Shown here one piece after another: positions 2,838 through 41,938 of a DNA stretch of 64,000 nt. The translations under genes and the position numbers were made by a program. This DNA is from Nitrospinota bacterium (lineage in GTDB: Bacteria; Nitrospinota_A; UBA7883; JACRGQ01): assembly GCA_016212275.1 (NCBI GenBank), contig JACRGR010000010.1, positions 5,593 through 69,592 of the forward strand, read 5' to 3'. Each line of letters opens with the position of its first letter. Within the stretch, counting starts at the first letter, position 1. A model generated the notes under the pieces. It did no database searches. It worked only from the letters and a program-made list of their open reading frames with translations, and was not told where the DNA came from.

Positions 2838-2844
2838 ATTCCTC

Positions 2845-6530: not shown

Positions 6531-6534
6531 ACAG

Positions 6535-7575: not shown

Positions 7576-7623
7576 TCCCGGCGGCGGATGATTGCGGGCC
7601 GGTTTTATGGTAATATTGCGGCT

Positions 7624-8286: not shown

Positions 8287-8290
8287 CGGC

Positions 8291-21022: not shown

Positions 21023-21025
21023 ATT

Positions 21026-21976
21026 ATGAACCAATTCATCGAACAAGCTATGAAACAGCTCAACCTCGATGAAGGGGAATTTGCGCTAATCCTTTCAAAG
21101 GCGGTGGCAGGCGGGGAACTGGAAGATGAGAATGAGCCAGAAGAATGGATTACCCAACGCCTTTTGCCCAACACCGTTTTCATTGGAAAGGACGATTATG
21201 CCCGGATGTGTATCAATGCACTTAAAATATTATCAAACGTCGCCGCCACGGATTACGGGTCAAGTCGGCAAAGGGACATGGGGCAATTGTGGGCGGATAT
21301 GATGAGAGGCTATTTGGGGGAAATCGCATTCCTGAAATTTCTTGAAAAGTGGAATGTGAAGGCACGCCTCGACCATGAAAAGCGAACTCTGGAAGACTAT
21401 TTGCCTATGGATATTCATGAAGTCCAATTTGACGGGGTACCACCAAGGCCACCGAAACTTCGCATTAGTGTAAAAACGACGAAGTGGAACGGAATATGGC
21501 TCGATATTCCCGGCGGACAGTTCAATCATTCGGATATTCATGTGCTGGTAAAAGTGGGAGTGGGAAGGGATCATCTTTTTGCATTTTTCAAGGAGATAAG
21601 CGTCTTTCGTGACAAAATCCTCAAAATTGGCGAGGAAGCGGGAAGCCTGACCAAGGCAGAATCGGCTCGACTGTATGATGCCCTTCCTTCCTTTAAGGAA
21701 ATTCCCGCATATATTACCGGATTTGCCAAAAGGGACCTCCCTTATTCGGATTTGCCATACGTTGGAAAAAAGGGACGGAAAAACTACACCATCACGGGAT
21801 GGAACGGCCCCATTAGGCCTGGCGATTTGGAAGAAATCAAACGACGCGAAAAAATTGACGGAAAGATACAATTTACGGGAATCGGCGAATTCTCGCATGA
21901 CCAGGGATACTTATTTAATACCGGAACCCTGCTCTGGCAAAAGGAGGAATGGGATAGGGTTGTTTCTTCGATGTAG
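21026..21976 (+). CDS. Putative Type II restriction endonuclease partner of the adjacent methyltransferase
   Basis: 316 aa. It starts 3 nt after the methyltransferase stop and has the same low-GC composition. A possible PD-(D/E)XK-like core is LPMD-x19-SVKTTK. I recognise no other family. Confidence 0.45.
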   Translation: MNQFIEQAMKQLNLDEGEFALILSKAVAGGELEDENEPEEWITQRLLPNTVFIGKDDYARMCINALKILSNVAATDYGSSRQRDMGQLWADMMRGYLGEIAFLKFLEKWNVKARLDHEKRTLEDYLPMDIHEVQFDGVPPRPPKLRISVKTTKWNGIWLDIPGGQFNHSDIHVLVKVGVGRDHLFAFFKEISVFRDKILKIGEEAGSLTKAESARLYDALPSFKEIPAYITGFAKRDLPYSDLPYVGKKGRKNYTITGWNGPIRPGDLEEIKRREKIDGKIQFTGIGEFSHDQGYLFNTGTLLWQKEEWDRVVSSM

Positions 21977-30767: not shown

Positions 30768-31664
30768 TCACGCTTGCTTCTCCTCCGCGGGTTTCGGGGG
30801 GCGGTTGTGGTCCGGGATTTTCGTGCTCATGTGCTTGATGAACGTGGTGAGGGTGTTTTTCAACTCGTCCCGTTTCACGATTACGTCCACAAACCCGTGC
30901 TCCAGCAAAAATTCAGAGCGCTGAAACCCCTCCGGCAGTTTCTGGCGGATGGTCTGCTCTATGACGCGCGGCCCGGCGAAGCAGATGAGCGCGTCCGGTT
31001 CCGCGATGATGACGTCACCCAGCATGGCGAACGACGCGGTGACGCCCCCCGCCGTGGGGTGCGCCAGCACGGAGAAGTAGGGAAGCCCCGCCTCGTTCAT
31101 TTCCGCGATGGCGGCGGAGGTTTTCGCCATTTGCATCAGCGAAAAGGTCCCTTCCTGCATCCGCGCGCCGCCGGAGCAGGATACGACGATAAGCGGACAC
31201 TTGCGCTTCCGGGCGCGTTCAGCGGCGCGGGTGATTTTTTCGCCCACCACCACGCCCATGCTCCCGCCCATGAATCCGAATTCGAACGCGGCTATTTCCA
31301 CTTCCCATCCGTTCAATTTTCCGCCGCCGCACACTATGGCGTCGTACTCGCCGGATTCCTTTTGGGCGGACTTGATGCGGTCGCGGTATTTTTTCGTATC
31401 GCGGAATTTCAGCGTGTCCAGCGCCTGTATGGCCACGTCCTGCTCATTGAAGGTGTTCTCGTCTATCAGGAGCAGGATGCGCCGGCGCGAGGGGAGCGTG
31501 TGGTGCTTGCCGCACTTTTTGCACACGCGCCACGCGGCCTCGAACTCGCCCGCGTACACCATTTCGCCGCACCCCTCGCATTTGAGGAACAGCCCTTCCG
31601 GCACGCCGCCGCGTTTTTTTCCGCCTTGGCTCAGCGGCGTTTTTTCTTTTTTAAACCAGCTCAT
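30768..31664 (-). CDS. accD: Acetyl-CoA carboxylase carboxyltransferase beta subunit
   Basis: The C-terminal 298 aa of the 733-aa ORF: MSWFKKEKTPL...CEGCGEMVY...CKKCGKH (zinc ribbon), ...GGSMGVVVGEKI...SGGARMQEG. The ATG at 31664 overlaps the leuA stop by 4 nt. Confidence 0.9.
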   Translation of the reverse strand: MSWFKKEKTPLSQGGKKRGGVPEGLFLKCEGCGEMVYAGEFEAAWRVCKKCGKHHTLPSRRRILLLIDENTFNEQDVAIQALDTLKFRDTKKYRDRIKSAQKESGEYDAIVCGGGKLNGWEVEIAAFEFGFMGGSMGVVVGEKITRAAERARKRKCPLIVVSCSGGARMQEGTFSLMQMAKTSAAIAEMNEAGLPYFSVLAHPTAGGVTASFAMLGDVIIAEPDALICFAGPRVIEQTIRQKLPEGFQRSEFLLEHGFVDVIVKRDELKNTLTTFIKHMSTKIPDHNRPPKPAEEKQA

Positions 31665-33175
31665 CTTCCCCTCTCCGCCAACATGCGGTTGAGCGCGCTT
31701 ATGTACGCCCGCGTGCTGGCCTCCACGGTGTCGGTGGAGGCGCTCCGCCCGCGCACCGACGATCCTTTGCCGAACGCCACCTGCACGGTCACTTCGCCCA
31801 CCGCGTCCTTGTCGCCGCTCACCGCGCGCACCTGATAGTTGAGCAGTTTTCCTTTCACGCCGGTGATGGCGTCTATCGCGTTGTACACCGCGTCTATCGG
31901 CCCGTCGCCATTGGCCGCGGCGGTGAGCACGTCGTTTCCTTTTTTCAGTTTCACCGTGGCGGTGGGCACGGTGGCGTTGCCCGTGGTGGAATGGAAGTAG
32001 GCCAATTCGTAGGTCTGGCGCCCCTGGGTTATCTCGTCCCCCACCACGGCCTCCAAGTCGTCCTCGTATACTTCCTTCTTTTTGTCCGCCAGCGCCTTGA
32101 AGCGCGTGAAGGCCGCGTCGAGTTGGTCCTTGGAGAGCTTGAAGCCAAGCTCTTCCATCTTTTTTCCGAAGGCGTGCCTGCCGGAATGCTTGCCCAGCAC
32201 CATCCGGTTTTCGTGCAGGCCGATGGATCGCGGCGTCATGATCTCGTACGTCTCGCGCCGTTTCAGCACACCGTCCTGATGGATGCCGCTTTCGTGCGCG
32301 AAGGCGTTTGCCCCCACGATCGCCTTGTTCGGCTGGACGGCGATGCCGGTGATGGCGGTGAGCAGTTTGCTCGTTTTGTAAATCTCCTTCGTGCGGATGC
32401 CGGTGCCATGGCGGAACAGGTCCTTGCGCGTTTTTATCGCCATCACCACCTCTTCCATGCTGGCGTTCCCCGCGCGTTCGCCGATGCCGTTCACGGTGCA
32501 CTCCACCTGCCGCGCGCCGTGCTGGATGGCGGTTAGCGAATTGGCCACGGCCAACCCCAAATCGTCGTGGCAGTGCACGCTTATCACCGCATTCTTGATG
32601 TTCGGCACGTTGGCGAAGATGCCGTCCAACAGCCCGCCGTACTCGTCCGGGATGGTGTAGCCCACCGTGTCCGGTATGTTCACGGTGGTGGCGCCCGCCT
32701 TTATCGCCTCGGTGATCACCTCGTACATGAACGCCGGGTTCGAGCGGGTGGCGTCCTCGCACGAGAATTCCACGTCCTTCGTGAATGTGAGCGCCAGCTT
32801 CACCCCCGCTTTGGTCATTTCGATGACTTCGGCGGGCGTTTTGCGGAGCTTGTGCTTCATGTGTATCGCGGAGGTGCTGATGAACACATGAATGCGCTTT
32901 TTCTTCGCCGGTTTCAGCGCGCGGCCCGCGGCCACGATGTCGCGCTCCACCATGCGCGCCAGTCCGCAAATCACCGGCCCCTTCACCTTTTTGGCGATCA
33001 GGTTCACGGACGCAAAGTCCCCGTCGGAGGAGGCGGGGAACCCGGCCTCGATAACGTCCACGTTCAGCGCGGCCAACTGGTGGGCCATCTGGAGCTTTTC
33101 CTCCATGTTCATGGAAAAGCCCGGCGATTGCTCGCCATCGCGCAACGTGGTGTCGAAAATAACAATGTTTGCCAT
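31661..33175 (-). CDS. leuA: 2-isopropylmalate synthase
   Basis: 504 aa: MANIVIFDTTLRDGEQSPGFSMNMEEKLQMAHQL...HCHDDLGLAVANSL...HESGIHQDG, plus the LeuA C-terminal regulatory domain. Confidence 0.9.
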   Translation of the reverse strand: MANIVIFDTTLRDGEQSPGFSMNMEEKLQMAHQLAALNVDVIEAGFPASSDGDFASVNLIAKKVKGPVICGLARMVERDIVAAGRALKPAKKKRIHVFISTSAIHMKHKLRKTPAEVIEMTKAGVKLALTFTKDVEFSCEDATRSNPAFMYEVITEAIKAGATTVNIPDTVGYTIPDEYGGLLDGIFANVPNIKNAVISVHCHDDLGLAVANSLTAIQHGARQVECTVNGIGERAGNASMEEVVMAIKTRKDLFRHGTGIRTKEIYKTSKLLTAITGIAVQPNKAIVGANAFAHESGIHQDGVLKRRETYEIMTPRSIGLHENRMVLGKHSGRHAFGKKMEELGFKLSKDQLDAAFTRFKALADKKKEVYEDDLEAVVGDEITQGRQTYELAYFHSTTGNATVPTATVKLKKGNDVLTAAANGDGPIDAVYNAIDAITGVKGKLLNYQVRAVSGDKDAVGEVTVQVAFGKGSSVRGRSASTDTVEASTRAYISALNRMLAERGR

Positions 33176-33384: not shown

Positions 33385-33479
33385 GTGTTGCTCCGCCGCT
33401 TGCCATGCGCCCCTTTTCCACTTTTGTCCCAGGCCGGAGCCTTTTGATTTCCCATCGCTTCATTGTTACTATTGCGCCG

Positions 33480-34745
33480 ATGAACAACTCGTCGCCTCCG
33501 GAAAGCATTGACACCGGCGCGGGAAAAGGAAAAATGGGGACCGACCGGCTGATCGGATGGGTATTCATAGCCGCGATATTGCTCTTGCCGGTTTTGCCCC
33601 ATTTTTCACCTCTCAACCCGTACGGCGCCTACACGGCATACCATAACGGCACCCTGATGATAATGAGCGGCGAGGATCCCTACCCATCCCGGCTATGGAT
33701 GGACCTGCCTGCCTTTGCCATACAGGACCGTTTTCCCTATAGCCCCACGTTCGCCTTCTTTTTTTATCCTTTTGCGCTGTTCAACAATGCCGCGGGCGTT
33801 TTTGCCTGGATGTTTCTGGGGGCGGTTTTCTTTTGGCACGGCGTGGCCTTTGCACTGTCGAAAATGGAGGGGGAGGCGCTTGTTCGGGGGAAATGGCTTT
33901 TTTTAGGCGCCGTGATGATGTTCAACGAAACCCTAAAAAGCATCGCGTGCCTCCAGGTAAACGCGCTGATCCTCGGGATGGTGCTAATGGGGGTAGGGCT
34001 ATTTTTCTCACGACGGTATGTTGGGGCGGCGTTTCTTCTCGCCTTGGCCACCAATTTCAAGATATATCCCGTGGCCATAGCGCTGTTGATTATGGTGAGC
34101 CTTGATTGGCGGTTCATCGGCTGGTATTTGGCGTTTCTTGGGGGGGCGTTCGCACTGCCCCTTCTGGTGTTCGAGCCATCCTTTTACCGCGAATTGTTGC
34201 GGAGCTGGTGGATAACCATATCGCATAATACGCTGTCCCCGGAACGCTATCTTTCACTGGAACCCTCCCTCCATTTTTTCGGGGTGGGCGTGTCCGGCCG
34301 GCTGTTCTCCGTCTTCACGCTAGCCAATGCGCTGGCCATCGCGGTTGCCGCCCGGTTCGTATTTTTAAGGGACAGGAACGCGTTCATAGGTATTGTGATG
34401 CCTATCGCGCTTGGTTTCGTTTGGCTTTTCAACAACCGGGCCGATAACGCCACCGTCGTTGCGGCCCTGCCCGCGTTCGTGTTCATGCTCCACGCCTTCC
34501 TGGATGCGCGCCGCCGCGGGGAATCGGGGGTGGCGAGGTTCCATCTCGTCTCGATGCTGGCCGCGTGGTGGCTACTATCCCTTTCATATTCCGACCTGAC
34601 CCCCAAGCCAATCAGGCATATCGCGCACGATTACCGGTTCATGTTTTGGGGAGTATTGGCCATGTATTTCTGGGCGTGGGCAAACGCGATCATCTTTGCG
34701 CGGTCGGCCCGCGCCGGAAAGGCCGTGGCTCCCGCCGCGCGCTGA
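33480..34745 (+). CDS. GT-C fold integral membrane glycosyltransferase, DUF2029/GT87-like (paralogue 1)
   Basis: Polytopic, with about 11 TM segments. It has YTAYHNGTLMIMSGEDPYP in the first loop and LLALATNFKIYPVAIALL, and it is clearly similar to the 38538..39755 product. The start is uncertain (33405, 33480 or 33534). Confidence 0.6.
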   Translation: MNNSSPPESIDTGAGKGKMGTDRLIGWVFIAAILLLPVLPHFSPLNPYGAYTAYHNGTLMIMSGEDPYPSRLWMDLPAFAIQDRFPYSPTFAFFFYPFALFNNAAGVFAWMFLGAVFFWHGVAFALSKMEGEALVRGKWLFLGAVMMFNETLKSIACLQVNALILGMVLMGVGLFFSRRYVGAAFLLALATNFKIYPVAIALLIMVSLDWRFIGWYLAFLGGAFALPLLVFEPSFYRELLRSWWITISHNTLSPERYLSLEPSLHFFGVGVSGRLFSVFTLANALAIAVAARFVFLRDRNAFIGIVMPIALGFVWLFNNRADNATVVAALPAFVFMLHAFLDARRRGESGVARFHLVSMLAAWWLLSLSYSDLTPKPIRHIAHDYRFMFWGVLAMYFWAWANAIIFARSARAGKAVAPAAR

Positions 34746-34842
34746 GACCGCGTCACGGGGGAAAAAAAGGTTCGCCCCTGAATCCAAGCGTATATAATTG
34801 CCACCTATGGGATTTGTGACGCCGGTTCGGCGGAGGTGAGGG

Positions 34843-36123
34843 GTGAGCACGATGTTTAGGGAAATTACCCGGTGCCGGATATGCGGCAACCAACGCCTTG
34901 TGGAAGTGCTCTCCCTCGGCACCCAATACCTTACCGGGGTGTTCCCCCGGCGCAAGGACCAGAAAATCGCCGCTGTTCCGCTGGAACTGGTGCGGTGCGA
35001 CGATGGCGGCGGGGCAAACAACGGGTGCGGCCTGCTTCAACTGAAACACAGCTACGACCTGGGACAAATGTACGGCGAGAATTACGGCTACCGTTCCGGC
35101 CTCAACCGGTCCATGGTGAAACACCTGAATGGCAAGGTGCAAAAGATCCTTTCCCGTGTCAGCCTGAACGAAGGGGACCTGGTGATCGATATTGGGAGCA
35201 ACGACAGCACGTTGTTGCGGGCCTACCCGGAGAATGGGCCGGTGCTCGCGGGCATCGACCCCTCCGGAAGCAAGTTCAAGGAATTTTATCCGCCGCACAT
35301 CGCCCTGATCCCGGAATTTTTCACCGCCGGGGCCGTCCGCAAACATTTCCCCGGCAAGAAGGCGAAGGTAATCACCTCCATCGCCATGTTTTACGACCTC
35401 GAGGATCCGCTGAACTTCATGCGTGAAGTGCACGAGGTGCTGGCGGACGACGGCCTTTGGGTCTTTGAGCAAAGCTACATGCCCGCCATGCTGGCGATGA
35501 ATTCGTACGACACCGTGTGCCACGAACATCTGGAATACTACGCGCTCAAACAGATCAAATGGATGGCCGACAAAGCGGGGTTCAAGATCGTGAACGTGGA
35601 GTTCAATGCCATAAACGGCGGAAGTTTTTCCGTGATGATGGCGAAGGCGGGCGCGAACTACAAGGCAAAGGACGCGGTGGTCGCGCAGATACTGAAGGAA
35701 GAAGAAGCTCACGGATTGGACACTATGACGCCGTACCGCGCCTTCGCGGAGCGGGTATCCGCCCATCGCGGGGAATTGCGCCGTGCCATCGAAGGGATAT
35801 GGGCCGAAGGGAAAAAGGTCTTTGGCTACGGAGCTTCCACCAAGGGGAATGTGATCCTCCAGTACTGCGGGATCACCGAAAAAGAGTTGCCGTTCATCGC
35901 CGATGTGAACCGGGAAAAATTCGGGGCGCTCACACCCGGCACCCTCATTCCGATCATCAGTGAAGAAGAGGCCGCCGCTAAAAACCCCGACTGCTACCTG
36001 GTGTTGGTGTGGCACTTCCGCGATTTCATTTTGAACAAGGAGCGGCCTTTTTGCGAACGGGGAGGGAAACTCCTGTTTCCGTTGCCGGCAATCGAGTTTG
36101 TCGACGGGTCGAATCTGAAGTAG
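34843..36123 (+). CDS. NDP-hexose C-methyltransferase (TylC3/EvaC-type; zinc-ribbon, SAM and C-methyltransferase C-terminal domains)
   Basis: 426 aa with an N-terminal four-Cys ribbon (CRICGNQRL...LVRCDDGGGANNGCGLLQL), YGENYGYRSGLN, and SAM motif DLVIDIGSNDSTLL. The C-terminal domain contains VFGYGASTKGN. Confidence 0.8.
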   Translation: MSTMFREITRCRICGNQRLVEVLSLGTQYLTGVFPRRKDQKIAAVPLELVRCDDGGGANNGCGLLQLKHSYDLGQMYGENYGYRSGLNRSMVKHLNGKVQKILSRVSLNEGDLVIDIGSNDSTLLRAYPENGPVLAGIDPSGSKFKEFYPPHIALIPEFFTAGAVRKHFPGKKAKVITSIAMFYDLEDPLNFMREVHEVLADDGLWVFEQSYMPAMLAMNSYDTVCHEHLEYYALKQIKWMADKAGFKIVNVEFNAINGGSFSVMMAKAGANYKAKDAVVAQILKEEEAHGLDTMTPYRAFAERVSAHRGELRRAIEGIWAEGKKVFGYGASTKGNVILQYCGITEKELPFIADVNREKFGALTPGTLIPIISEEEAAAKNPDCYLVLVWHFRDFILNKERPFCERGGKLLFPLPAIEFVDGSNLK

Positions 36124-36141
36124 CGGGACGAAAAGGCGCCT

Positions 36142-37089
36142 TTGGGCAAAAAAAAAGCGGTTATCGTCGGTCTTTCCGGGCAGGACGGGCATTACCTCAA
36201 CGCCCTGCTTTCGGGCAAGGGATATGAGGTCACGGGCCTTTCCAGCACCCGGGCTATCGCCCCGGATGGGAGGATGCTTCCCCCGGTCGATATAACGAAC
36301 CCCGGCGAGGTGGAAACCCTTGTCCGCGCGGTTCGGCCCGACGAGGTGTATTACCTCGCCGCCGTCCACCAGTCGTCGCAGGACCGGATGGCGAACGGCG
36401 ACGGGGATCTTTTCATTAAAAGCATGGCGGTGAACGTGGTGGGGCTGGTCAACTTCCTGAACGCGGCGAAAAAGAACGCGCCCGGCACCCGGCTGTTTTA
36501 CGCCGCCTCTTCCCATGTGTTTGGCGCCCCGGAAGGGGAAATGCAGGACGAACGCACTCCCTTCGATCCCGTGTGCATTTACGGCATCAGCAAAACCGCG
36601 GGCGTGCGGGCGTGCCGTTTTTTCCATGCGGAGCACGGCGTATTCGCTTCCGCCGGGATACTGTTCAATCACGAGTCGCCGGTCCGGAAACCGCAATTCG
36701 TTTCGCGCAAGATCGTGGATACCGCAAAAGCGATCAAGGAAGGCCGGGAGGAAAAACTGGTGTTGGGAAACCTCGATTCGCGCGTGGATTGGGGCTACGC
36801 GCCCGACTTCGCGGACGCGATGCACCGGATACTCCAGGCGGACGGGCCTGACTCCTTTGTGGTGGCCACCGGGGAACTCCATTCGATCCGCGAGTTCGTG
36901 GAAGAGGTCTTTGGTCTATTGGGTCTGGATTGGCAAAAGCATGTGACCGTGGATCCCTCGATTGTCACCAAAAAGCCGCGGCACCCCCTCGCCGGCAAGG
37001 CCCACAAATTGCGCTCCGTCACCGGTTGGCGGCCGTCGGTGGATTTTCCGGGGTTGATCCGTAAGCTGGTTGAAGGAGAAGCGCGGTGA
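36142..37089 (+). CDS. GDP-mannose 4,6-dehydratase-family short-chain dehydrogenase (Gmd/Rmd-like)
   Basis: 315 aa: KKAVIVGLSGQDGHYLNALLSGKGYEVTGL, YGISKTAG (YxxxK), ILFNHESPVRKPQFVSRKI, LGNLDSRVDWGYAPDF. The TTG start is followed by an A9 run. Confidence 0.8.
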   Translation: MGKKKAVIVGLSGQDGHYLNALLSGKGYEVTGLSSTRAIAPDGRMLPPVDITNPGEVETLVRAVRPDEVYYLAAVHQSSQDRMANGDGDLFIKSMAVNVVGLVNFLNAAKKNAPGTRLFYAASSHVFGAPEGEMQDERTPFDPVCIYGISKTAGVRACRFFHAEHGVFASAGILFNHESPVRKPQFVSRKIVDTAKAIKEGREEKLVLGNLDSRVDWGYAPDFADAMHRILQADGPDSFVVATGELHSIREFVEEVFGLLGLDWQKHVTVDPSIVTKKPRHPLAGKAHKLRSVTGWRPSVDFPGLIRKLVEGEAR

Positions 37090-38522
37090 ACGAAACGGTC
37101 CGCCGTCCCATCGTCATCATCCCCACCTACAACGAGGCGGAAAACGTGGAACTGATCTGCCGTCGGATACTGGAGCAAAAGACGCCGGTGGATCTTCTGT
37201 TCGTGGACGACAATTCGCCGGACGGCACCGGAAAGATCGCCGACGCGCTGGCGGAAAAGGACGGGCGGATACACGCGCTCCACCGGGCGGGAAAGTTGGG
37301 GTTGGGCACCGCGCACGTCCACGGCCTTCAATGGGCGTATGACCGCGGCTACCGGGTCGCCATCACCATGGACTGCGACGGGACCCACTCCCCGGACGAC
37401 ATCGCGGCGTTTGCGCAACACGCGGAAGAATACGATGTGGTCGTCGGCTCCCGTTTCATGCGGGACACGAGCCTGCGGGGCTGGACCCTCCACCGGAAGT
37501 TCCTCACCCGGCTCGGCCATTTGTTCACCGGATTTTTCCTCCGCATCCCGTACGACGCCACCGGCGCCTTTCGGCTCTACCGGCTGGACCGGATCCCGCC
37601 GGGGCTGTTTTCGCTGGTGCATTCCCCCGGCTACTCGTTTTTTTTCGAGAGCCTTTTCGTGATCTGCCAAAACGGGTTCCGCGTGAAAGAGGTGGCCATA
37701 GACCTGCCCGCGCGCACCTATGGTCATTCGAAGATGCGGTTTTCCGACGCGAGCTACAGCTTTATGCTCCTCGTGCATACCTGGCTGAAAATGTTGTTGC
37801 ATGAGGAATCGTTCACCTATGCCCCGCCGTACATTCCCTCCGATGTGGACGCGGAAAAATTCAAGACCGAGTGGGACGGCTATTGGAGCGCGAAGAGCGA
37901 CGCGAAAGGGCTGGTGTACGACCTGATCGCCGCCTTCTACCGCAAATTCATCATCAAGCGCACCCTCAACCATTTTCTCGGCAAACATTGTGCGCCGGGG
38001 GCTTTGTTGCTCCACGCCGGGTGCGGGAGCGGGCAGGTGGATACCGGGGTCGCCACGGCATACCGCGTGGACGCGCTGGACATTTCCGCCGCCGCGCTGA
38101 GCCTGTACGCCAAGCACAACCCCAATCACCGGAAACTGGTCCACGCAAGCCTTTTCGAAATGCCGCCCGCGGACCAGGCGTACGACTGCATTTACAACCT
38201 TGGCGTAATGGAGCACTTCGCCGAGGAGGAGATCGGACGCATTCTCCGGCAGTTCCACGGACAATTGAAGGCCGACGGACGGCTGGTGCTTTTCTGGCCT
38301 CCGTCGAAGGGGCTGACCGTTTTATTTTTGGGGATGGTCCATTTCATCTTGAACCGTCTTTTGAAAAAAGGGGTCAAACTGCATCCGGACGAAATTTCCA
38401 AGCTGAGATCGAAACGGCACGCGCGGGAACTGCTGGAAAAGGCCGGCTTCGCGCTGGTGGAGTATTCGTTCGGCCCGCGCGACTTCTTCACTTACGCCAT
38501 CGTGGTGGCCAAGAAAAAATAG
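37086..38522 (+). CDS. Fusion protein: Dpm1/Ppm1-like polyprenol-phosphate glycosyltransferase (GT2) plus class I SAM-dependent methyltransferase
   Basis: 478 aa. The N-terminal part is PIVIIPTYNEAENV...LLFVDDNSPDGT...ITMDCDGTHSP. The C-terminal part is LLLHAGCGSGQVD...VDALDIS...IYNLGVMEHF...DGRLVLFWP. The GTG start overlaps the upstream stop. Confidence 0.75.
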   Translation: MNETVRRPIVIIPTYNEAENVELICRRILEQKTPVDLLFVDDNSPDGTGKIADALAEKDGRIHALHRAGKLGLGTAHVHGLQWAYDRGYRVAITMDCDGTHSPDDIAAFAQHAEEYDVVVGSRFMRDTSLRGWTLHRKFLTRLGHLFTGFFLRIPYDATGAFRLYRLDRIPPGLFSLVHSPGYSFFFESLFVICQNGFRVKEVAIDLPARTYGHSKMRFSDASYSFMLLVHTWLKMLLHEESFTYAPPYIPSDVDAEKFKTEWDGYWSAKSDAKGLVYDLIAAFYRKFIIKRTLNHFLGKHCAPGALLLHAGCGSGQVDTGVATAYRVDALDISAAALSLYAKHNPNHRKLVHASLFEMPPADQAYDCIYNLGVMEHFAEEEIGRILRQFHGQLKADGRLVLFWPPSKGLTVLFLGMVHFILNRLLKKGVKLHPDEISKLRSKRHARELLEKAGFALVEYSFGPRDFFTYAIVVAKKK

Positions 38523-38537
38523 GTCTGCCGCGCGGGT

Positions 38538-39755
38538 TCAAGCCGGTTCCAGCGGGACAACGATCGCGTCGCGCCGCGTGCCGAAGAAAAACTGCACCGC
38601 CTGCACCCACGCCCAACAGTACACCAATAGCGCCCCGAACGTCTTGAAGCGCCATTCGTCGGCGATATGCCGCACCATTTTCGGGAAGAGGTCCGAGTGG
38701 GCGAGCGAGATCAAAAACCACGCGGCGACCATCACGGCAAGGTGCGCGCGGAAAAGGGCGTCGTCGCCGTTGTGCCGCTCGTACAGCGCCTCGTGCAGGA
38801 TGAACGCCAACGCCGGGACCAAAAGGACGAACGTGGGGCTTTCGGTGCGTTTGTTGAACAGCAGGATGAACGCCAACGCCAGCGGCGCCAAAAGCCGGAT
38901 GAATTGGGAGCGTTCCCTTTGGAACACGGCAAATGCCACTATGGCGATGGCAAGCGCGTTAATGGAAATGAAGGCGAGGAACTGGGGAATGCCCGGATGC
39001 AGGCCGAAGTGCGCAAGCGTAGGCTCCAGCCCCAAGAACACCGGATGCAAAGGGTCGCTCATGAATATCCCCAGCCAGTGCGCCAGCAGGGAGAACAGGA
39101 AGTCCATCCCCACGAGCGGCGCGGGGGCCAGCAAGATCAGTGAAAAGAAGACGGCGAAACTCAGCAAAAAGGCGGCGTTCAGCTCCATCGCCATCAGGAG
39201 CGCCGCCACCACCGGATATATTTTGAAATTCGTACCCAGCGCCAAAAGGAGCGCGGAAACCACATACCGCTTTTCGAAATAGGCCGCCATCCCCGCCATC
39301 ATCAGGCCGCCGATAAAGGCGTTAGATTGAAGGTTGGTAAGCGACCCCATCATTTCGTTGGCGCAGAGCAAAAGGGCAAGGAAGTGCCACCAGCGGGAAA
39401 AAAGGCCGGTGGGGTCGAGGTGGCGCACAACCCCCTTGAACCCGTACCAGAACGCAAAAAGATTCAGCAGGTACCACGCCAGCGTCCCCATATGAAGCCC
39501 CAGCCCGCTCTTGGAAAACGGCATGAAAAACACGCCGAACGACGGGCTGTACATGAACCAGTTACGGAAGTTCTCGCTTGTCTGCCAGTCCTGCGGATAC
39601 GGGTCGCGGCCCGATACGATGTCCAGCGCGCCATTATTGAATGCCGTGTAGTTGTTGTGCGGGGCGTGCATGAGGGGAGAGATGGAAAGCAGGATGAAGA
39701 AAAGCAGAAAGCAGAAGTCCGCTTTCCGTTTGAATGGATGATCGCCGAGCCTCAT
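38538..39755 (-). CDS. GT-C fold integral membrane glycosyltransferase, DUF2029/GT87-like (paralogue 2)
   Basis: 405 aa, polytopic: YTAFNNGALDIVSGRDPYP, LLALGTNFKIYPVVAALL. It is a paralogue of the 33480..34745 product and is convergent with the cluster. Confidence 0.6.
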   Translation of the reverse strand: MRLGDHPFKRKADFCFLLFFILLSISPLMHAPHNNYTAFNNGALDIVSGRDPYPQDWQTSENFRNWFMYSPSFGVFFMPFSKSGLGLHMGTLAWYLLNLFAFWYGFKGVVRHLDPTGLFSRWWHFLALLLCANEMMGSLTNLQSNAFIGGLMMAGMAAYFEKRYVVSALLLALGTNFKIYPVVAALLMAMELNAAFLLSFAVFFSLILLAPAPLVGMDFLFSLLAHWLGIFMSDPLHPVFLGLEPTLAHFGLHPGIPQFLAFISINALAIAIVAFAVFQRERSQFIRLLAPLALAFILLFNKRTESPTFVLLVPALAFILHEALYERHNGDDALFRAHLAVMVAAWFLISLAHSDLFPKMVRHIADEWRFKTFGALLVYCWAWVQAVQFFFGTRRDAIVVPLEPA

Positions 39756-39819
39756 GGGTTACGGACGATTATAGCAGGGGACGAACGTCTCCCGCCACGG
39801 AAAGGCGGCTAAGCCGGAA

Positions 39820-39859
39820 CGCGAAACGGCGGAGGATCTTCCGTTCCGCCCGTTTCGCG
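39820..39859 (-). terminator. Strong GC-rich hairpin immediately downstream of rpsT
   Basis: The minus strand CGCGAAACGG(G)CGG pairs with CCGCCGTTTCGCG, a 13-bp stem with one bulge. It starts 2 nt after the S20 stop. The tail TTCCGGCTT is only weakly U-rich. Confidence 0.4.
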
Positions 39860-39861
39860 GG

Positions 39862-40128
39862 TTACTTGCCGAGCTTGGCCACGCCCGCCGCGATGCGCGA
39901 TACGCGCCGCGACGCGGTGTTGGCGTGCAGGATGCCCTTCGTGACCCCTGCGTCTATCAGCGCCTGGGCGGCTTTCAGTTCCTGGGCGGCCTTGGCCTTG
40001 TCCCCGGCGGCCACCGCGGTCTGCACCCGCTTGGCTACCGTTGCCATCGCGCTCTTGTAACTCACGTTGCGCTCGTGCCGCTTAACGTCCTGCCGTGCCG
40101 CTTTGACCGGCGATCTGTGTTTTTTCAA
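39862..40128 (-). CDS. rpsT: 30S ribosomal protein S20
   Basis: LKKHRSPVKAARQDVKRHERNVSYKSAMATVAKRV...GILHANTASRRVSRI. The ORF opens at a TTG at 40140, but the GGAGGA there looks like the RBS for the TTG at 40128. Confidence 0.85.
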   Translation of the reverse strand: MKKHRSPVKAARQDVKRHERNVSYKSAMATVAKRVQTAVAAGDKAKAAQELKAAQALIDAGVTKGILHANTASRRVSRIAAGVAKLGK

Positions 40129-40180
40129 ATCTTCCTCCAAAAGAGGGGCATTCTAACCGAATTTCCCCGAATGTCAACTG

Positions 40181-41938
40181 TTACAGACGCACCGAGGTGC
40201 TACCGGGGGAGGCTCCGGGTTTCGATTCGCGCCAGTCTATCTGCGATATCTGGTAGCGCACCCCCACTTTCCCTTTCAATTCGGCCCAGCCCACCTCGCC
40301 GCATTTGATCGCCGTGGCGTCGCCCAGCATGGTGATCACTTTCGCGCTGGCGAATATCCGGTTCTTTTCCGGGAAGGTTTCTTTCACCCCCGGCGCAAGC
40401 TCCACGAACGATTCCGTCATCAGCCCCTCGATCCGCTTGGCCACGTTAGCGGCGTCGCCTATCCGGTCGCTGTCCGCCTCTTTCACTATCACCTGTCCGC
40501 AGTCCATCCCTATACGCAGGTCAATTATTTGCGCGGGGTCGTCGGTGGAATCATTGTGCGCCCGCACCGAATGCAGAAGCGATATGCCCAGGTTCACCGC
40601 GCTGGCGCAATCGTTGAATGTGAGCATGTAGCCGTCGCCCGTGCTTTTTTCAAACTGGCAGTGGTACTGCTTTTTCAGGTCCGTCAGCGGCTTGTCTATC
40701 ACCGCGAACACTTTTTGGAAGTAGTGCAGTTCGCCGAAGCTGTCTATCATGTTCGTGGACTTGCAGATGTCTATGAACATGATCGCCTCGAACTTCTGCT
40801 CCTTGATGCCTTCTTCCTGCGCGCGGACCGAGGCGGTTTTCAGAGAATCCGTTTCCTCTTTTATCGCGTCTATTGTCATGGTTTCCTCGGCGATCTTGCC
40901 CACCGCCGCCGTCCCCATGCTTTTGATGGACTCAAGGTGCTTTATCGCCTCTTCGCGTATCTTGGCGGAGCCTGCCACGGCGTTCTCCGTCATTTGCACG
41001 AATATCTCCAGGTCCTTCGTCCCCTTTTCGCGCTCGCCCGCCAGCATCCGCGCCGCGCTCCGGCTGTAGTACGCCCATGCCAGGGTGGAGTCCAGTTTCA
41101 GCGCCCTGCTGTAGTCCTTTATCGCCTCTTCATATTTCCCCAGCGCGAAGTAGCCGTTCCCCCGGTTGTAGTACGCCATTGCGTTGGCGGGGGCGAGCTT
41201 TATCGCCTCGTCGTAATCGAGGATCGCCTCTTCCTTCATCCCCAGCTTGCCGCGCGCGGTGGCGCGGTTGAAATACGCGCCGGAGTTTCCGGGGGAAAGC
41301 GCGATTGACTTGTCGAAATCCGCCAGCGCGTCCTTTGGGTTCCCCAGCGCCATTTTCAGGGTGCCGCGCCGGGCCAGCGCTTTCGGGTTTTTCGGATCCA
41401 GCTTTATCGCCTCGTTGAAATCGTTTATCGCCTCTTCTTTTTTTCCGAGCGCCGCCTTGGTCTTGCCGCCGGCGTACCACGAGGGGGCGTGGTTGGGGTT
41501 CAGTTTCACCGCCTGCGCGTAAGCGTTCGCCGCCTCTTCGTACTGGTTCAGTTTGAAGCGCGCGCTTCCCAGGTTGTAGTACAAAAGGGCCGATTGCGGG
41601 TTGATCCGCAACGCCTCGCTGAAATCGGCCACGGCCTCGGCCAGCTTTCCCGCCTGCACCCGCAATAGGCCGCGTTCGCCGAACGCCTTTGGGTGGTTGG
41701 GATCCAGCTTCACCGCTTCGGAAAGGTCCTTTAACGCTTCTTCCTTTTTGCCGAGTTGGATCTTTGCTTTGGCGCGGTGAAAGTGGGGGTCGGCGCTTTT
41801 CGGGTCGAGTTTCAGCGCCTCGTCGAAACAGGGAATGGCGTCTTTGGCGTTGCCGCCTTCGAGCAGGGCCAGCCCCTCGTCGAGCTTTTGTTTTCCTTTT
41901 TTCGCCCCGCCGCCGGTCAGCGCGTCAAACACACCCAT
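40181..41938 (-). CDS. TPR-repeat protein with C-terminal class III adenylate/guanylate cyclase domain
   Basis: 585 aa. About 9 TPR units (AxxxFxxALxLxPxxA pattern) are followed by AIMFIDICKST...KSTGDGYMLTF...RIGMDCGQVIV...GDAANVAKRIEG. Confidence 0.75.
   Translation of the reverse strand: MGVFDALTGGGAKKGKQKLDEGLALLEGGNAKDAIPCFDEALKLDPKSADPHFHRAKAKIQLGKKEEALKDLSEAVKLDPNHPKAFGERGLLRVQAGKLAEAVADFSEALRINPQSALLYYNLGSARFKLNQYEEAANAYAQAVKLNPNHAPSWYAGGKTKAALGKKEEAINDFNEAIKLDPKNPKALARRGTLKMALGNPKDALADFDKSIALSPGNSGAYFNRATARGKLGMKEEAILDYDEAIKLAPANAMAYYNRGNGYFALGKYEEAIKDYSRALKLDSTLAWAYYSRSAARMLAGEREKGTKDLEIFVQMTENAVAGSAKIREEAIKHLESIKSMGTAAVGKIAEETMTIDAIKEETDSLKTASVRAQEEGIKEQKFEAIMFIDICKSTNMIDSFGELHYFQKVFAVIDKPLTDLKKQYHCQFEKSTGDGYMLTFNDCASAVNLGISLLHSVRAHNDSTDDPAQIIDLRIGMDCGQVIVKEADSDRIGDAANVAKRIEGLMTESFVELAPGVKETFPEKNRIFASAKVITMLGDATAIKCGEVGWAELKGKVGVRYQISQIDWRESKPGASPGSTSVRL

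What the first reader, a model, noticed from the sequence alone, without database searches (positions are those of the whole stretch)
33480..39755. Five-gene envelope glycosylation module: two GT-C (GT87-like) paralogues bracketing a sugar C-methyltransferase, a Gmd-like enzyme and a polyprenol-P-sugar synthase-methyltransferase fusion
The gene order is GT87-like(+), TylC3/EvaC-type NDP-hexose C-methyltransferase(+), Gmd-family enzyme(+), Dpm1/Ppm1-like GT2 fused to a SAM methyltransferase(+), GT87-like(-). The three central genes are separated by 18 nt and a 4-nt overlap. TylC3-type enzymes C-methylate NDP-4-keto-6-deoxyhexoses, and Gmd makes GDP-4-keto-6-deoxymannose. Ppm1/Dpm1-type enzymes load a sugar from a nucleotide donor onto polyprenol phosphate. 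GT87/GT-C enzymes use polyprenol-P-sugars on the outer face of the membrane. Taken together, the cluster reads as a self-contained route from GDP-mannose to a methyl-branched and possibly O-methylated deoxyhexose. That sugar would be carried on polyprenol phosphate and installed by two dedicated periplasmic transferases. Branched-chain sugars are known as nucleotide-linked donors for cytoplasmic GT-B enzymes. I am not aware of a described system delivering one through a polyprenol-phosphate carrier to GT-C transferases. No 4-ketoreductase or epimerase is obvious unless the Gmd-like protein fills that role.
Basis: inference. Interest (0 to 1): 0.7.

Follow-up and report, generated by a model that had tools for sequence, protein, structure and literature searches.

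The report
Lipid-linked C-methyl sugar glycosylation gene cassette
Five adjacent genes in an uncultured Nitrospinota bacterium probably build a methyl-branched sugar, load it onto a membrane lipid carrier and attach it to the cell envelope from the outside; the three central genes recur as a cassette in many phyla and I found no description of it in the literature I could search.

Summary
The five genes are real, at the stated coordinates and spacing, and every domain call passes its Pfam threshold. The reading is partly right.

Confirmed:
- Both membrane proteins are GT87. The model of the second has the GT-C fold, and its best structural match is the mycobacterial mannosyltransferase PimE.
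- The C-methyltransferase is TylC3/MtmC-type.
- The GT2 domain most resembles polyprenyl-phosphate sugar synthases (GtrB, DPMS, ArnC) and is fused to a SAM methyltransferase.
- The C-methyltransferase, Gmd-like and GT2-methyltransferase genes form a cassette. A C-methyltransferase lies beside 18 of 22 fusion-type loci, against 2 of 141 ordinary Dpm1-like loci. Carriers include Planctomycetota, Verrucomicrobiota, Acidobacteriota, Proteobacteria, Bacteroidota, Myxococcota and an archaeon.
- The cassette usually abuts a large polytopic membrane protein, a GT-C family wherever Pfam recognises it.

Corrected:
- The Gmd-like protein lacks the catalytic Glu of 4,6-dehydratases (His here, Leu in two relatives). 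It scores below the Gmd equivalog cut-off. In four or five other loci it sits beside a canonical gmd.
- It is therefore most likely the 4-ketoreductase, so the module is not self-contained. No gmd lies in the 64 kb window.
- The GT87 pairing is lineage-specific, and no flippase gene is nearby.

Verdict: a new variant of the known three-component extracytoplasmic glycosylation scheme. The chemistry is inferred, not shown.

The parts
33405..34745 (+). Predicted periplasm-facing transferase that uses the lipid-linked sugar.
   Evidence: Pfam PF09594 68.8 bits against GA 25. 38-40% identical to GT87b. Carries the GEDPYP, YSP, NE, QVN and NFKIYP motifs shared with the GT87b family. A 61%-identical homologue lies directly upstream of GT2-MT in L089. 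Not modelled itself.
34843..36123 (+). NDP-hexose C-methyltransferase (TylC3/EvaC/TcaB9/MtmC type), 426 aa. Predicted to C-methylate a GDP-4-keto-hexose.
   Evidence: Pfam PF08421, PF13489 and PF08484. PDB best match MtmC 4rv9 at 203 bits, then KijD1 and TcaB9. Four Cys (C11, C14, C52, C62) and the HEH motif (H227-E228-H229) are present. Homologues 42-68% identical lie next to the fusion gene in 18 of 22 loci.
36142..37089 (+). Gmd-derived short-chain dehydrogenase paralogue, 315 aa, lacking the dehydratase Glu (S123-S124-H125). Predicted GDP-4-keto-sugar 4-ketoreductase.
   Evidence: PF16363 229 bits. TIGR01472 199 bits against cut-off 415. 191 bits to P. aeruginosa Gmd 1rpn against 64 bits to Rmd 2pk3. 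Gmd E128 aligns to H125, while Y147/K151 and the NHESP motif are kept. Cassette-linked copies read SSH (8) or SCL/SSL (2); the second copies in four loci read SSSE.
37086..38522 (+). GT2-MT fusion, 478 aa. N-terminal Dpm1/GtrB/ArnC-like polyprenyl-phosphate glycosyltransferase domain (about 1-245). C-terminal class I SAM methyltransferase domain (about 255-478). No transmembrane anchor.
   Evidence: PF00535 97 bits plus Methyltransf_11/25. Best NCBIfam and PDB sequence hits are PpgS, PgfS, ArnC and DPMS 5mlz. AF2 model pLDDT 83; Foldseek top hits GtrB, DPMS and ArnC at E about 1e-13. More than 120 full-length homologues. Invariant DDNSPDGT and MDCD..H.P motifs. Only one weakly hydrophobic segment, residues 400-418.
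38538..39755 (-). GT87b: polytopic GT87 glycosyltransferase, 405 aa, convergent with GT2-MT. Second predicted periplasmic transferase.
   Evidence: PF09594 49.3 bits. AF2 model pLDDT 90, pTM 0.90. Foldseek best match PimE 9dm5 (E 1.4e-5, TM 0.63/0.66), then GPI-mannosyltransferase I, ALG6, ArnT and ALG3. The family profile hits PimE only (E 3.4e-4), with PimE Y92/E153/Q163/N165/K195/P198 aligned to Y69/E134/Q143/N145/K178/P181. The same convergent arrangement occurs in L088 and L089.

Best explanation
This is a dedicated extracytoplasmic glycosylation module of the three-component type: a lipid-phosphate-sugar synthase plus GT-C transferase(s). Its donor sugar is made by a conserved three-gene cassette.

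Proposed steps:
1. GDP-mannose is converted to GDP-4-keto-6-deoxy-mannose by a canonical Gmd encoded elsewhere in the genome. This step is inferred; the gene is not in the window.
2. The TylC3-type enzyme uses SAM to add a methyl branch next to the 4-keto group, at C3 or less likely C5. This is inferred from the family.
3. The Gmd-derived paralogue has lost the dehydration base but keeps the Ser/Tyr/Lys redox triad and the Gmd-type sugar-nucleotide site. It reduces the 4-keto group to give a GDP-6-deoxy-C-methyl-hexose. This is inferred from sequence and context.
4. The GT2 domain of the fusion protein transfers the sugar from GDP to polyprenyl (undecaprenyl) phosphate at the cytoplasmic face. 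The fused SAM methyltransferase adds a further methyl group, probably an O-methyl, before or after this transfer. This is inferred.
5. An unidentified flippase moves the lipid-linked sugar across the membrane.
6. The two GT87 (GT-C) paralogues transfer the sugar to one or two acceptor positions on an envelope glycoconjugate of this diderm bacterium. LPS core or O-chain is the leading guess; the acceptor is unknown.

What is shown: the gene anatomy, the family and fold assignments, the loss of the Gmd catalytic Glu, and the cross-phylum linkage of the cassette with each other and with GT-C-like membrane proteins. What is inferred: every chemical step.
For: Family and fold assignments.

Linkage: the C-methyltransferase, Gmd-like and GT2-MT genes are contiguous or within a few kb in L001-L016, L090 and L091. 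These loci come from Planctomycetota, Verrucomicrobiota, Acidobacteriota, Beta- and Gammaproteobacteria, Bacteroidota, Myxococcota and Methanoregula. A C-methyltransferase is present in 18 of 22 fusion-type loci against 2 of 141 loci with an ordinary Dpm1-like GT2 (Fisher p = 3e-18).

GDP link: the Gmd-like protein is 33-41% identical to the canonical Gmd copies of those loci and keeps the NHESP and GNLDS..DWG motifs. Canonical gmd (SSSE) lies in or beside the locus in L001, L003, L013 and L016; a further fragment in L014 could not be typed.

Reductase role: the catalytic Glu is replaced in all ten cassette-linked copies, eight by His and two by Leu.

GT-C link: 15 of 22 loci have a polytopic ORF (at least 300 aa, at least 6 hydrophobic segments) within 250 bp of the cassette. 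Pfam recognises it as GT87 (window, L088, L089), PMT (L009 scanned; its L012 and L015 homologues are 68% identical) or PMT_2 (L091). Weaker, sub-threshold matches are GT87 (L016), GtrII (L010) and YfhO (L007). The archaeal locus also carries two small EamA-family half-transporters (each just above Pfam's gathering score) between the methyltransferase gene and the weakly GT87-like gene. They recall the ArnE/F flippase pair, which is my own recollection. The 4-nt overlap and 18-nt gap in the window suggest co-translation of the central genes.
Against: - No biochemical data exist for any member.
- All characterised TylC3-type enzymes act on dTDP-sugars, so GDP use is inferred only from neighbours.
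- The window has no gmd, manC or flippase gene.
- The GT2 domain has no transmembrane anchor and is only about 20% identical to solved polyprenyl-phosphate glycosyltransferases.
- In L088 and L089 the GT87 pair flanks GT2-MT with no C-methyltransferase or Gmd-like gene in between. The GT2-MT/GT87 unit may therefore work without the branched sugar; those contigs are under 5 kb, so the genes could lie just outside.
- Most partner membrane proteins in other phyla have no detectable family. Profile comparisons to GT87 or to the PDB gave nothing.
- The catalytic Asp of PimE (D58) could not be mapped. The candidate D51 is not invariant in the family.
Confidence: 0.55

Rival explanations
1. Two pathways share one address. 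GT2-MT makes ordinary polyprenyl-phosphate mannose, or an O-methyl-mannose, for the GT87 enzymes. The C-methyltransferase and Gmd-like enzyme make a separate GDP-linked branched sugar used by cytoplasmic glycosyltransferases on the same glycan. The genes are linked because they decorate one polymer, not because the branched sugar is lipid-loaded.
For: L088 and L089 show GT87a, GT2-MT and GT87b contiguous with no C-methyltransferase or Gmd-like gene between them. In L005 and L008 the C-methyltransferase lies 3-7 kb from GT2-MT. A GT4 gene lies 4 kb upstream in the window. The GT2 domain's best solved relative is a GDP-mannose-using DPMS. All known branched sugars are delivered as nucleotide sugars.
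Against: The association with the C-methyltransferase is specific to the fusion-type GT2 and nearly absent from ordinary Dpm1-like loci (18 of 22 against 2 of 141). The usual order is C-methyltransferase, Gmd-like, GT2-MT, with overlapping or near-abutting genes. Most loci show no candidate cytoplasmic GT as a conserved neighbour.
Confidence: 0.17
2. The Gmd-like protein is still a GDP-mannose 4,6-dehydratase that uses His instead of Glu as the base. The 4-keto group is reduced by the C-methyltransferase itself. Its best solved relative, MtmC, is reported to have 4-ketoreductase activity as well. The module would then be self-contained from GDP-mannose.
For: The protein is much closer to true Gmd (191 bits) than to Rmd (64 bits). 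It keeps the Ser, Tyr and Lys residues and the NHESP motif. The best PDB hit of the C-methyltransferase is MtmC. A 4-ketoreductase activity of the S. argillaceus enzyme is cited in PMC3539893. No other gmd is in the window.
Against: Two cassette-linked homologues have Leu, which cannot act as a base, at this position. Four loci carry a canonical SSSE gmd as well as the Gmd-like gene, which argues for non-redundant functions. The score is below half the Gmd equivalog cut-off.
Confidence: 0.13
3. The Gmd-like protein is a non-dehydrating C4 oxidoreductase. It oxidises GDP-mannose at C4 without removing the 6-OH, hands the 4-keto sugar to the C-methyltransferase, and then reduces the product with the same bound cofactor. 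The result would be a 3-C-methyl-hexose that is not 6-deoxy. The cassette would be redox-neutral and would need no gmd.
For: The dehydration base is lost while the redox triad and the GxxGxxG motif are kept. Most cassette loci, including the window, have no adjacent canonical gmd. 3-C-methyl-D-mannose is a known rare natural sugar (PMC12961483, listed). Its occurrence in bacterial O-chains is my own recollection.
Against: Four or five loci do carry canonical gmd in or beside the locus. No precedent was tested here. The idea rests on analogy with non-dehydrating Gmd-like heptose dehydrogenases, recalled from memory and not checked.
Confidence: 0.1
4. The cassette does not serve envelope glycosylation. 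It might glycosylate a lipid such as a hopanoid or a secondary metabolite, and the adjacent polytopic proteins might be transporters rather than transferases.
For: Many partner proteins have no recognisable family. One neighbour is an MMPL transporter. There is a weak NCBIfam hit to the hopene-associated HpnB.
Against: Wherever the partner is recognisable it is a GT-C family: GT87, PMT or PMT_2. The GT87b model matches PimE. The GT2 domain's best structural matches are all polyprenyl-phosphate glycosyltransferases.
Confidence: 0.05

Closest known systems
Three-component extracytoplasmic glycosylation systems (GtrA/GtrB/Gtr* of Shigella and Salmonella; ArnC/ArnEF/ArnT; the pentofuranose systems of Kelly et al. 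2024, PMC11127046)
   Same: A GT2 enzyme charges polyprenyl phosphate with one sugar, and a GT-C enzyme transfers it outside the cytoplasm. The GT2 domain's best structural matches are GtrB, DPMS and ArnC. As with Gtr*, the GT-C partner is interchangeable between lineages.
   Different: The donor sugar appears to be made by a dedicated C-methyltransferase and reductase. The synthase has no transmembrane helices and is fused to a SAM methyltransferase. No flippase gene is in the window. There are two GT-C paralogues.
Mycobacterial Ppm1 with GT87 mannosyltransferases (PimE, MptA/B/C)
   Same: A GT87 GT-C enzyme uses a polyprenyl-phosphate hexose made by a soluble Dpm1-like catalytic domain. PimE is the best structural and only sequence-profile match of GT87b, and PimE's essential Y92/Q163/K195 align to invariant residues (PMC12041525).
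   Different: The organism is a diderm Nitrospinota bacterium, not an actinobacterium. Identity to PimE is about 18%. The PimE catalytic Asp was not mapped. The donor is predicted not to be mannose, and the acceptor is unknown.
TylC3/EryBIII/EvaC/TcaB9/KijD1/MtmC NDP-hexose C-3-methyltransferases
   Same: The same three-domain architecture (zinc ribbon, Rossmann methyltransferase, C-terminal domain). 157-203 bits to the solved members. The HEH motif is conserved.
   Different: All characterised members use dTDP-2,6-dideoxy or amino sugars for antibiotics delivered by GT-B enzymes. Here the neighbours point to a GDP-sugar and a lipid-phosphate carrier. TcaB9 H181 aligns to Asp.
Proposed GDP-mannose route to virenose (6-deoxy-3-C-methyl-gulose) in Coxiella burnetii LPS (PMC3539893)
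   Same: The concept is the same: GDP-mannose is dehydrated by Gmd, C-3 methylated by a TylCIII-like enzyme and then 4-keto reduced to give an envelope sugar.
   Different: That pathway is itself only an in-silico proposal. It has no polyprenyl-phosphate synthase or GT-C step, and its reductase candidates are Rmd- or Fcl-type rather than a Gmd paralogue.
[quoted passage not shown]
   Same: SDR fold, the Ser/Tyr/Lys triad and Gmd-type sugar-nucleotide motifs. The predicted function is that of Rmd.
   Different: The catalytic Glu of Gmd is replaced by His. The protein scores below the Gmd equivalog cut-off and is only distantly related to canonical Rmd (64 bits). It looks like an independent Gmd-derived clade.
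M. tuberculosis methylthioxylose capping locus (Rv0539 Dpm1-like GT2 with Rv0541c GT-C). Recalled from memory; only citations were seen, and the source was not read.
   Same: A small locus pairs a Dpm1-like synthase with a GT-C enzyme to install an unusual methylated sugar through a polyprenyl-phosphate donor.
   Different: A different sugar (a pentofuranose thioether), a different sugar-making chemistry, and an actinobacterial lipoglycan as acceptor.

Membership tests
GT87 / GT-C(A) glycosyltransferases (PimE-like) | Match to the family model PF09594 above its gathering score | tested here: met
   68.8 bits (GT87a) and 49.3 bits (GT87b) against GA 25.
GT87 / GT-C(A) glycosyltransferases (PimE-like) | Polytopic GT-C fold resembling solved members | tested here: met
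   GT87b AF2 model pLDDT 90, pTM 0.90. Foldseek top hit PimE 9dm5 (TM 0.63/0.66), followed by other GT-C enzymes. GT87a was not modelled; it is 38-40% identical to GT87b.
GT87 / GT-C(A) glycosyltransferases (PimE-like) | Residues that bind the donor phosphate and are essential in PimE (Y92, Q163, K195) | tested here: met
   The A2 profile against PimE aligns them to Y69, Q143 and K178, which are invariant or nearly invariant in the family (PMC12041525).
GT87 / GT-C(A) glycosyltransferases (PimE-like) | Catalytic Asp at the tip of the first juxtamembrane helix (PimE D58) | tested here: inconclusive
   The candidate is D51 in GRDPYP (GEDPYP in GT87a), present in 12 of 17 family members. The region lies outside the HMMER alignment to PimE, and no residue-level superposition was available.
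GT87 / GT-C(A) glycosyltransferases (PimE-like) | Use of a polyprenyl-phosphate sugar donor | not testable with these tools
   Needs an enzyme assay.
TylC3-type NDP-hexose C-methyltransferases | Three-domain architecture: PF08421 zinc ribbon, class I methyltransferase, PF08484 C-terminal domain | tested here: met
   All three are above GA. End-to-end alignment to MtmC, KijD1 and TcaB9.
TylC3-type NDP-hexose C-methyltransferases | Four zinc-binding Cys and the Glu-His pair of the active site | tested here: met
   C11, C14, C52 and C62. E228-H229 align to the E-H of TcaB9 and MtmC. The catalytic role of that pair is recalled from the TcaB9 literature and was not checked here.
TylC3-type NDP-hexose C-methyltransferases | Substrate is an NDP-4-keto-hexose (dTDP in all characterised members) | not testable with these tools
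   GDP is inferred only from the Gmd-type neighbours.
GDP-mannose 4,6-dehydratase (Gmd, TIGR01472) | Score at or above the equivalog cut-off | tested here: not met
   199.2 bits against a cut-off of 415.
GDP-mannose 4,6-dehydratase (Gmd, TIGR01472) | Catalytic Glu two residues after the catalytic Thr/Ser (T-S-E) | tested here: not met
   The motif reads S123-S124-H125; P. aeruginosa Gmd E128 aligns to H125. The ten cassette-linked copies have His (8) or Leu (2), while the canonical second copies keep Glu.
GDP-mannose 4,6-dehydratase (Gmd, TIGR01472) | SDR Tyr-x3-Lys, GxxGxxG and the NHESP sugar-nucleotide motif | tested here: met
   Y147/K151, G10-G13-G16 and N176-H-E-S-P.
[quoted passage not shown] | Sequence membership in the characterised Rmd group | tested here: not met
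   Only 64 and 52 bits to the solved Rmd structures 2pk3 and 6x3b, against 191 bits to Gmd. The reductase function is inferred, not membership.
Polyprenyl-phosphate glycosyltransferases (DPM1/Ppm1/GtrB/ArnC-type GT2) | GT-A domain with a DxD motif, closest to this subgroup of GT2 | tested here: met
   D96-C-D98 and DDNSPDGT are invariant. The best NCBIfam hits are PpgS, PgfS, ArnC, AglJ and a dolichyl-P hexose transferase, all far below their cut-offs. The top 12 Foldseek hits are GtrB, DPMS and ArnC.
Polyprenyl-phosphate glycosyltransferases (DPM1/Ppm1/GtrB/ArnC-type GT2) | C-terminal transmembrane helices anchoring the enzyme (GtrB, ArnC, archaeal DPMS) | tested here: not met
   No transmembrane segment follows the GT2 domain; a methyltransferase domain follows instead. 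That human DPM1 and the mycobacterial Ppm1 catalytic domain also lack transmembrane helices is my own knowledge.
Polyprenyl-phosphate glycosyltransferases (DPM1/Ppm1/GtrB/ArnC-type GT2) | Transfer of a sugar to polyprenyl phosphate | not testable with these tools
   Needs an assay. It is supported indirectly by the adjacency of GT-C proteins.
Three-component periplasmic glycosylation system | Lipid-phosphate-sugar synthase and GT-C transferase encoded together | tested here: met
   GT2-MT is flanked by GT87a and GT87b. The same pairing with various GT-C families occurs in other loci.
Three-component periplasmic glycosylation system | Dedicated flippase (GtrA-, ArnE/F- or MATE-type) in the locus | tested here: not met
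   No credible small multi-TM ORF was found anywhere in the 64 kb window. Only the archaeal locus L016 has two small EamA-type genes, each just above Pfam's gathering score.

The most novel reading that the evidence does not exclude
A cassette found in at least six bacterial phyla and in methanogenic archaea synthesises a polyprenyl-phosphate-linked, C-methyl-branched and additionally methylated hexose. This would be a class of lipid-linked glycosyl donor not described before. Lineage-specific GT-C enzymes would plug into the cassette to decorate envelope glycans. Its Gmd-derived paralogue, with His or Leu replacing the catalytic Glu, would be a new clade of GDP-4-keto-sugar reductase or oxidoreductase. 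Its soluble GT2-methyltransferase fusion would be a new architecture of polyprenyl-phosphate sugar synthase.
Probability: 0.4. Interest if true: 0.75.

Novelty: new variant of a known kind. Interest (0 to 1): 0.6.

Why it matters
Branched-chain (C-methyl) sugars are known almost only from antibiotic pathways and a few LPS O-chains, where they are delivered as nucleotide sugars by cytoplasmic enzymes.

- **New donor type.** If this cassette loads such a sugar onto polyprenyl phosphate, it widens the known donor repertoire of extracytoplasmic (GT-C) glycosylation.
- **Orphan families.** It would give a testable function to several families with no curated assignment: the GT2-methyltransferase fusion, the Glu-less Gmd paralogue, and many unannotated polytopic partner proteins.
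- **Unexamined envelopes.** It predicts an unusual methylated sugar in the envelopes of abundant, poorly studied environmental lineages such as Nitrospinota, Verrucomicrobiota, Planctomycetota, Acidobacteriota and Methanoregula.
- **Annotation.** It shows that automatic calls of "GDP-mannose 4,6-dehydratase" and "dolichol-phosphate mannosyltransferase" for these genes are probably wrong in detail.

Tried and rejected
- **Single-sequence PDB searches.** phmmer of GT87a and GT87b against PDB sequences gave no hits. Only the 17-sequence profile reached PimE.
- **Partner families against GT87 and the PDB.** hhalign of the unassigned partner families (A3, A5) against the GT87 alignment gave probability below 1%. 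hmmsearch of A3 and A4 against the PDB gave nothing meaningful. Their GT-C nature therefore stays inferred.
- **Canonical gmd in the window.** tblastn with three SSSE-type Gmd proteins found only the Gmd-like gene.
- **Flippase in the window.** Two hydrophobicity scans for a GtrA-like small membrane protein found nothing credible.
- **GT87b-family context elsewhere.** I tested whether its members are generally paired with Dpm1-like synthases or with the fusion's methyltransferase. The neighbouring 253-aa GT2 (L085) and 256-aa methyltransferase (L087) show no similarity to GT2-MT at E below 1e-3.
- **Metagenome scan.** I reused those loci as a negative control.
- **Signals and composition.** The promoter and terminator scan of 33.0-40.3 kb gave counts near shuffled expectation. 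The Rfam scan of the window gave no hits. The module shows no compositional anomaly, so there is no sign of recent horizontal acquisition.
- **His125 as an epimerase-type base.** I considered this by analogy with the Cys at the equivalent position of GDP-fucose synthase. I dropped it because two orthologues have Leu there.
- **Literature.** Searches for the cassette (C-methyltransferase with polyprenol or GT-C; branched-chain sugar with undecaprenyl phosphate; Nitrospina glycans) found no description.

Full report
**1. Observation**

- 33405 (or 33480) to 34745, plus strand
- 34843-36123, plus strand
- 36142-37089, plus strand
- 37086-38522, plus strand
- 38538-39755, minus strand

Third-position GC is 0.70-0.80, as in the other real genes of the window. 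The 18-nt gap and the 4-nt overlap between the central genes are as stated. The two stop codons of the convergent pair are 15 nt apart.

No NCBIfam model reaches its cut-off for any of the five proteins, so none belongs to a curated equivalog.

The flanks are housekeeping genes: accD (about 30768-31640, minus strand, read from the translation), leuA and rpsT. GC content is unremarkable across the module.

The phosphoglycerate kinase in the window is 87% identical to proteins of Nitrospinota MAGs. The host is therefore an uncultured diderm of that phylum, and the source contig is 80 kb.

**2. The two membrane proteins**

They are paralogues, 38-40% identical. Single sequences find nothing in the PDB.

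An AlphaFold model of GT87b, built on 17 family members, has pLDDT 90 and pTM 0.90. Its best Foldseek match is the mycobacterial mannosyltransferase PimE (E 1.4e-5, TM 0.63/0.66). The next matches are GPI-mannosyltransferase I, ALG6, ArnT and ALG3, all GT-C enzymes.

A profile of the family hits PimE and nothing else in the PDB (E 3.4e-4). It aligns PimE Y92, E153, Q163, N165, K195 and P198 to GT87b Y69, E134, Q143, N145, K178 and P181. Of these, Y69, N145, K178 and P181 are invariant in the family and E134 and Q143 nearly so. Y92, Q163 and K195 are essential in PimE, and K195 holds the donor phosphate (PMC12041525).

The catalytic Asp of PimE (D58) lies outside the aligned stretch. The candidate, D51 of the DPYP motif, is conserved in 12 of 17 members, so that one feature stays open. 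The refutation criterion "not GT-C" is not met.

**3. The C-methyltransferase**

It aligns end to end with MtmC (203 bits), KijD1 and TcaB9. It has four Cys in the N-terminal ribbon. It keeps the Glu-His of the HEH motif that aligns with the TcaB9 and MtmC active-site pair. The catalytic role of that pair is my recollection of the TcaB9 literature.

TcaB9 H181 aligns to Asp. This is compatible with a different substrate but proves nothing.

**4. The Gmd-like protein is probably not Gmd**

- It is far closer to true Gmd (191 bits to 1rpn) than to solved Rmd (64 and 52 bits).
- It reaches only 199 bits against the 415-bit cut-off of the Gmd equivalog.
- In the alignment to P. aeruginosa Gmd, the catalytic Glu128 of the T-S-E motif is His125.
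- I extracted the homologues from related loci. The ten copies that sit inside the cassette read SSH (eight) or SCL/SSL (two).
- The second copies in L001, L003, L013 and L016 read SSSE and carry the canonical ITGITGQDGSYL N-terminus.

A lineage that keeps a canonical gmd in or beside the locus, and that tolerates Leu at the base position, has most likely converted this paralogue to another role. The Tyr/Lys/Ser triad, the GxxGxxG motif and the NHESP sugar-nucleotide motif are kept. The obvious role is reduction of the 4-keto group, the function of Rmd.

No canonical gmd is in the 64 kb window.

**5. The fusion protein**

For the GT2 domain (about residues 1-245), the best NCBIfam, PDB-sequence and Foldseek matches are all polyprenyl- or dolichyl-phosphate glycosyltransferases: PpgS, PgfS, ArnC, AglJ, Pyrococcus DPMS and GtrB. 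The model has pLDDT 83.

There is no transmembrane anchor. A class I SAM methyltransferase domain follows, and its structural neighbours are generic.

More than 120 clusters at 90% identity share the full architecture at 51-56% identity. Both domains have many invariant residues.

The methyltransferase domain alone defines a modest family: 94 representatives at E up to 1e-30 and 258 at E up to 1e-10. It occurs both fused and as a free-standing protein of about 220-240 aa.

**6. Synteny**

This is the strongest evidence. Look-ups and scans gave 22 loci with a fusion-type gene.

- Eighteen carry a C-methyltransferase homologue (42-68% identical). Fourteen carry a Gmd-like gene, usually in the order C-methyltransferase, Gmd-like, GT2-MT.
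- The four loci without a C-methyltransferase are contigs under 5 kb.
- The named loci come from Scalindua and Planctomycetaceae; Spartobacteria, Chthoniobacterales and Verrucomicrobiae; Bryobacterales; Sulfuriferula and Gammaproteobacteria; a Bacteroidetes MAG; Myxococcales; and Methanoregula. In Methanoregula the GT2 and methyltransferase are separate genes.
- As a control, 141 loci retrieved by the same scans carry only an ordinary Dpm1-like GT2. A C-methyltransferase is present in two of them (Fisher p = 3e-18).

The refutation criterion "genes not co-occurring in other genomes" fails for the three central genes.

**7. The GT-C partner is interchangeable**

Fifteen of the 22 loci have a polytopic ORF (at least 300 aa, at least 6 hydrophobic segments) within 250 bp of the cassette. 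What these partners are:
- GT87 only in the window and its close relatives L088 and L089.
- PMT (33.5 bits against GA 22.7) in the L009 protein that was scanned. Its L012 and L015 homologues are 68% identical.
- PMT_2 (35.3 bits against GA 26.1) in L091.
- Sub-threshold GT87, GtrII and YfhO matches in L016, L010 and L007.
- DUF7657/DUF7654 in L005.
- Nothing in the others.

Profile comparisons of the unassigned families to GT87 or to the PDB gave nothing.

The archaeal locus also has two small EamA-family genes, each just above Pfam's gathering score, between the methyltransferase gene and the weakly GT87-like gene. That arrangement recalls the ArnE/ArnF flippase pair, which is my own recollection.

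More distant GT87b homologues (43-45% identical) sit elsewhere:
- beside a GT9 heptosyltransferase and an MsbA-like ABC transporter (L084);
- beside other glycosyltransferases in a Nitrospinae MAG (L085);
- beside flagellar genes (L087).

In L088 and L089, whose fusion protein is about 75% identical to the window's, GT87a, GT2-MT and GT87b are contiguous. No C-methyltransferase or Gmd-like gene lies between them. In L002 (GT2-MT 83-84% identical) the cassette has a 574-aa unassigned partner instead. The system is modular, and the bracketing by two GT87 genes is a local arrangement.

**8. Mechanism**

The best-supported reading is a three-component-type extracytoplasmic glycosylation system with a custom donor.
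1. A canonical Gmd encoded elsewhere supplies GDP-4-keto-6-deoxy-mannose.
2. The C-methyltransferase adds the branch.
3. The Gmd-derived paralogue reduces C4.
4. The GT2 domain loads the sugar on polyprenyl phosphate.
5. The fused methyltransferase adds another methyl group.
6. An unidentified flippase exports the lipid-linked sugar.
7. The GT87 pair transfers it to an envelope acceptor.

The LPS-core-like context of a GT87b homologue is the only hint to the acceptor.

The gene anatomy, folds, residue changes and linkage are shown. All the chemistry is inferred. I put this reading at 0.55.

The rivals are:
- two pathways sharing one address (0.17);
- a non-dehydrating C4 oxidoreductase giving a 3-C-methyl sugar that is not 6-deoxy (0.10);
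- a function other than envelope glycosylation (0.05).

**9. Comparison with what is known**

The scheme of a Dpm1-like synthase plus a GT-C enzyme is well known. Examples are Gtr, Arn, Ppm1 with PimE/Mpt, and the pentofuranose systems of PMC11127046.

A GDP-mannose route to a 3-C-methyl-6-deoxyhexose has been proposed in silico for Coxiella virenose (PMC3539893). That proposal has no lipid-phosphate step.

I found no paper describing the cassette or a lipid-phosphate-linked branched sugar. The searchable library is incomplete, so this is absence of evidence only.

The finding is therefore a new variant of a known kind. It adds three family-level novelties: the Glu-less Gmd paralogue, the soluble GT2-methyltransferase fusion, and the interchangeable and largely unannotated GT-C partners.

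**10. Verdict**

Interest is 0.6. The hypothesis is well supported by context and directly testable, and it concerns a widespread cassette, but no chemistry has been demonstrated.

Noticed in passing
window 19874-21976: A low-GC island (GC 0.47 against about 0.60) carries a 382-aa ORF with DNA cytosine-5 methyltransferase motifs (FCGPGG, ENV). A 316-aa ORF of unknown function follows. This is probably a horizontally acquired type II restriction-modification pair between the addAB-like genes and the batA/VWA genes.
   Followed up: no
L016 (Methanoregula MAG) 2271-9617: An archaeal version of the cassette. It has a canonical gmd (minus strand), C-methyltransferase, Gmd-like gene (SSH) and GT2 as one gene. 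The methyltransferase is a separate gene on the opposite strand. Two small EamA-family genes (150 and 110 aa) and a weakly GT87-like 439-aa protein follow. It is the only locus with flippase candidates.
   Followed up: partly
L088 1-3245 and L089 1-4369: Close relatives (GT2-MT about 75% identical, GT87b 77%) have GT87a, GT2-MT and GT87b contiguous, with no C-methyltransferase or Gmd-like gene between them. The contigs are too short to say whether those genes lie just outside.
   Followed up: partly
L084 8947-14588: A GT87b homologue (45% identical) sits among a GT2, a GT9 heptosyltransferase-family gene and an MsbA-like ABC transporter, downstream of tol/exb genes. This hints that the GT87 subfamily acts on LPS core or lipid A.
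   Followed up: no
L003 8682-12526: In this long ENA contig the C-methyltransferase and the downstream Gmd-like gene are split into several called fragments. These may be frameshifts from assembly errors or pseudogenes.
   Followed up: no
window 37848-38519 (methyltransferase domain of the fusion): The methyltransferase domain is a distinct family of moderate size: 94 representatives at E up to 1e-30. It occurs both fused to the GT2 domain and as free-standing proteins of 215-240 aa. One homologue, P0004, is 774 aa with extra methyltransferase-type domains.
   Followed up: partly
window 40150-40177 (minus strand) and 38538-40140: A near-consensus sigma-70-like site (TTGACA, 16 nt, TAGAAT) lies upstream of rpsT. 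GT87b follows rpsT on the same strand after 106 nt, so it may be co-transcribed with a ribosomal protein gene.
   Followed up: no
window 30768-32969 (minus strand): The mechanical 733-aa ORF is an artefact. Only its C-terminal part (about 30768-31640) is a gene, accD, recognised from the zinc-ribbon N-terminus MSWFKKEK...CEGCGE...CKKCG. The rest overlaps leuA in another frame.
   Followed up: no
window 40181-41938 (minus strand): A 585-aa protein with about seven TPR repeats is fused to an adenylate/guanylate cyclase catalytic domain. It lies next to comEC.
   Followed up: no
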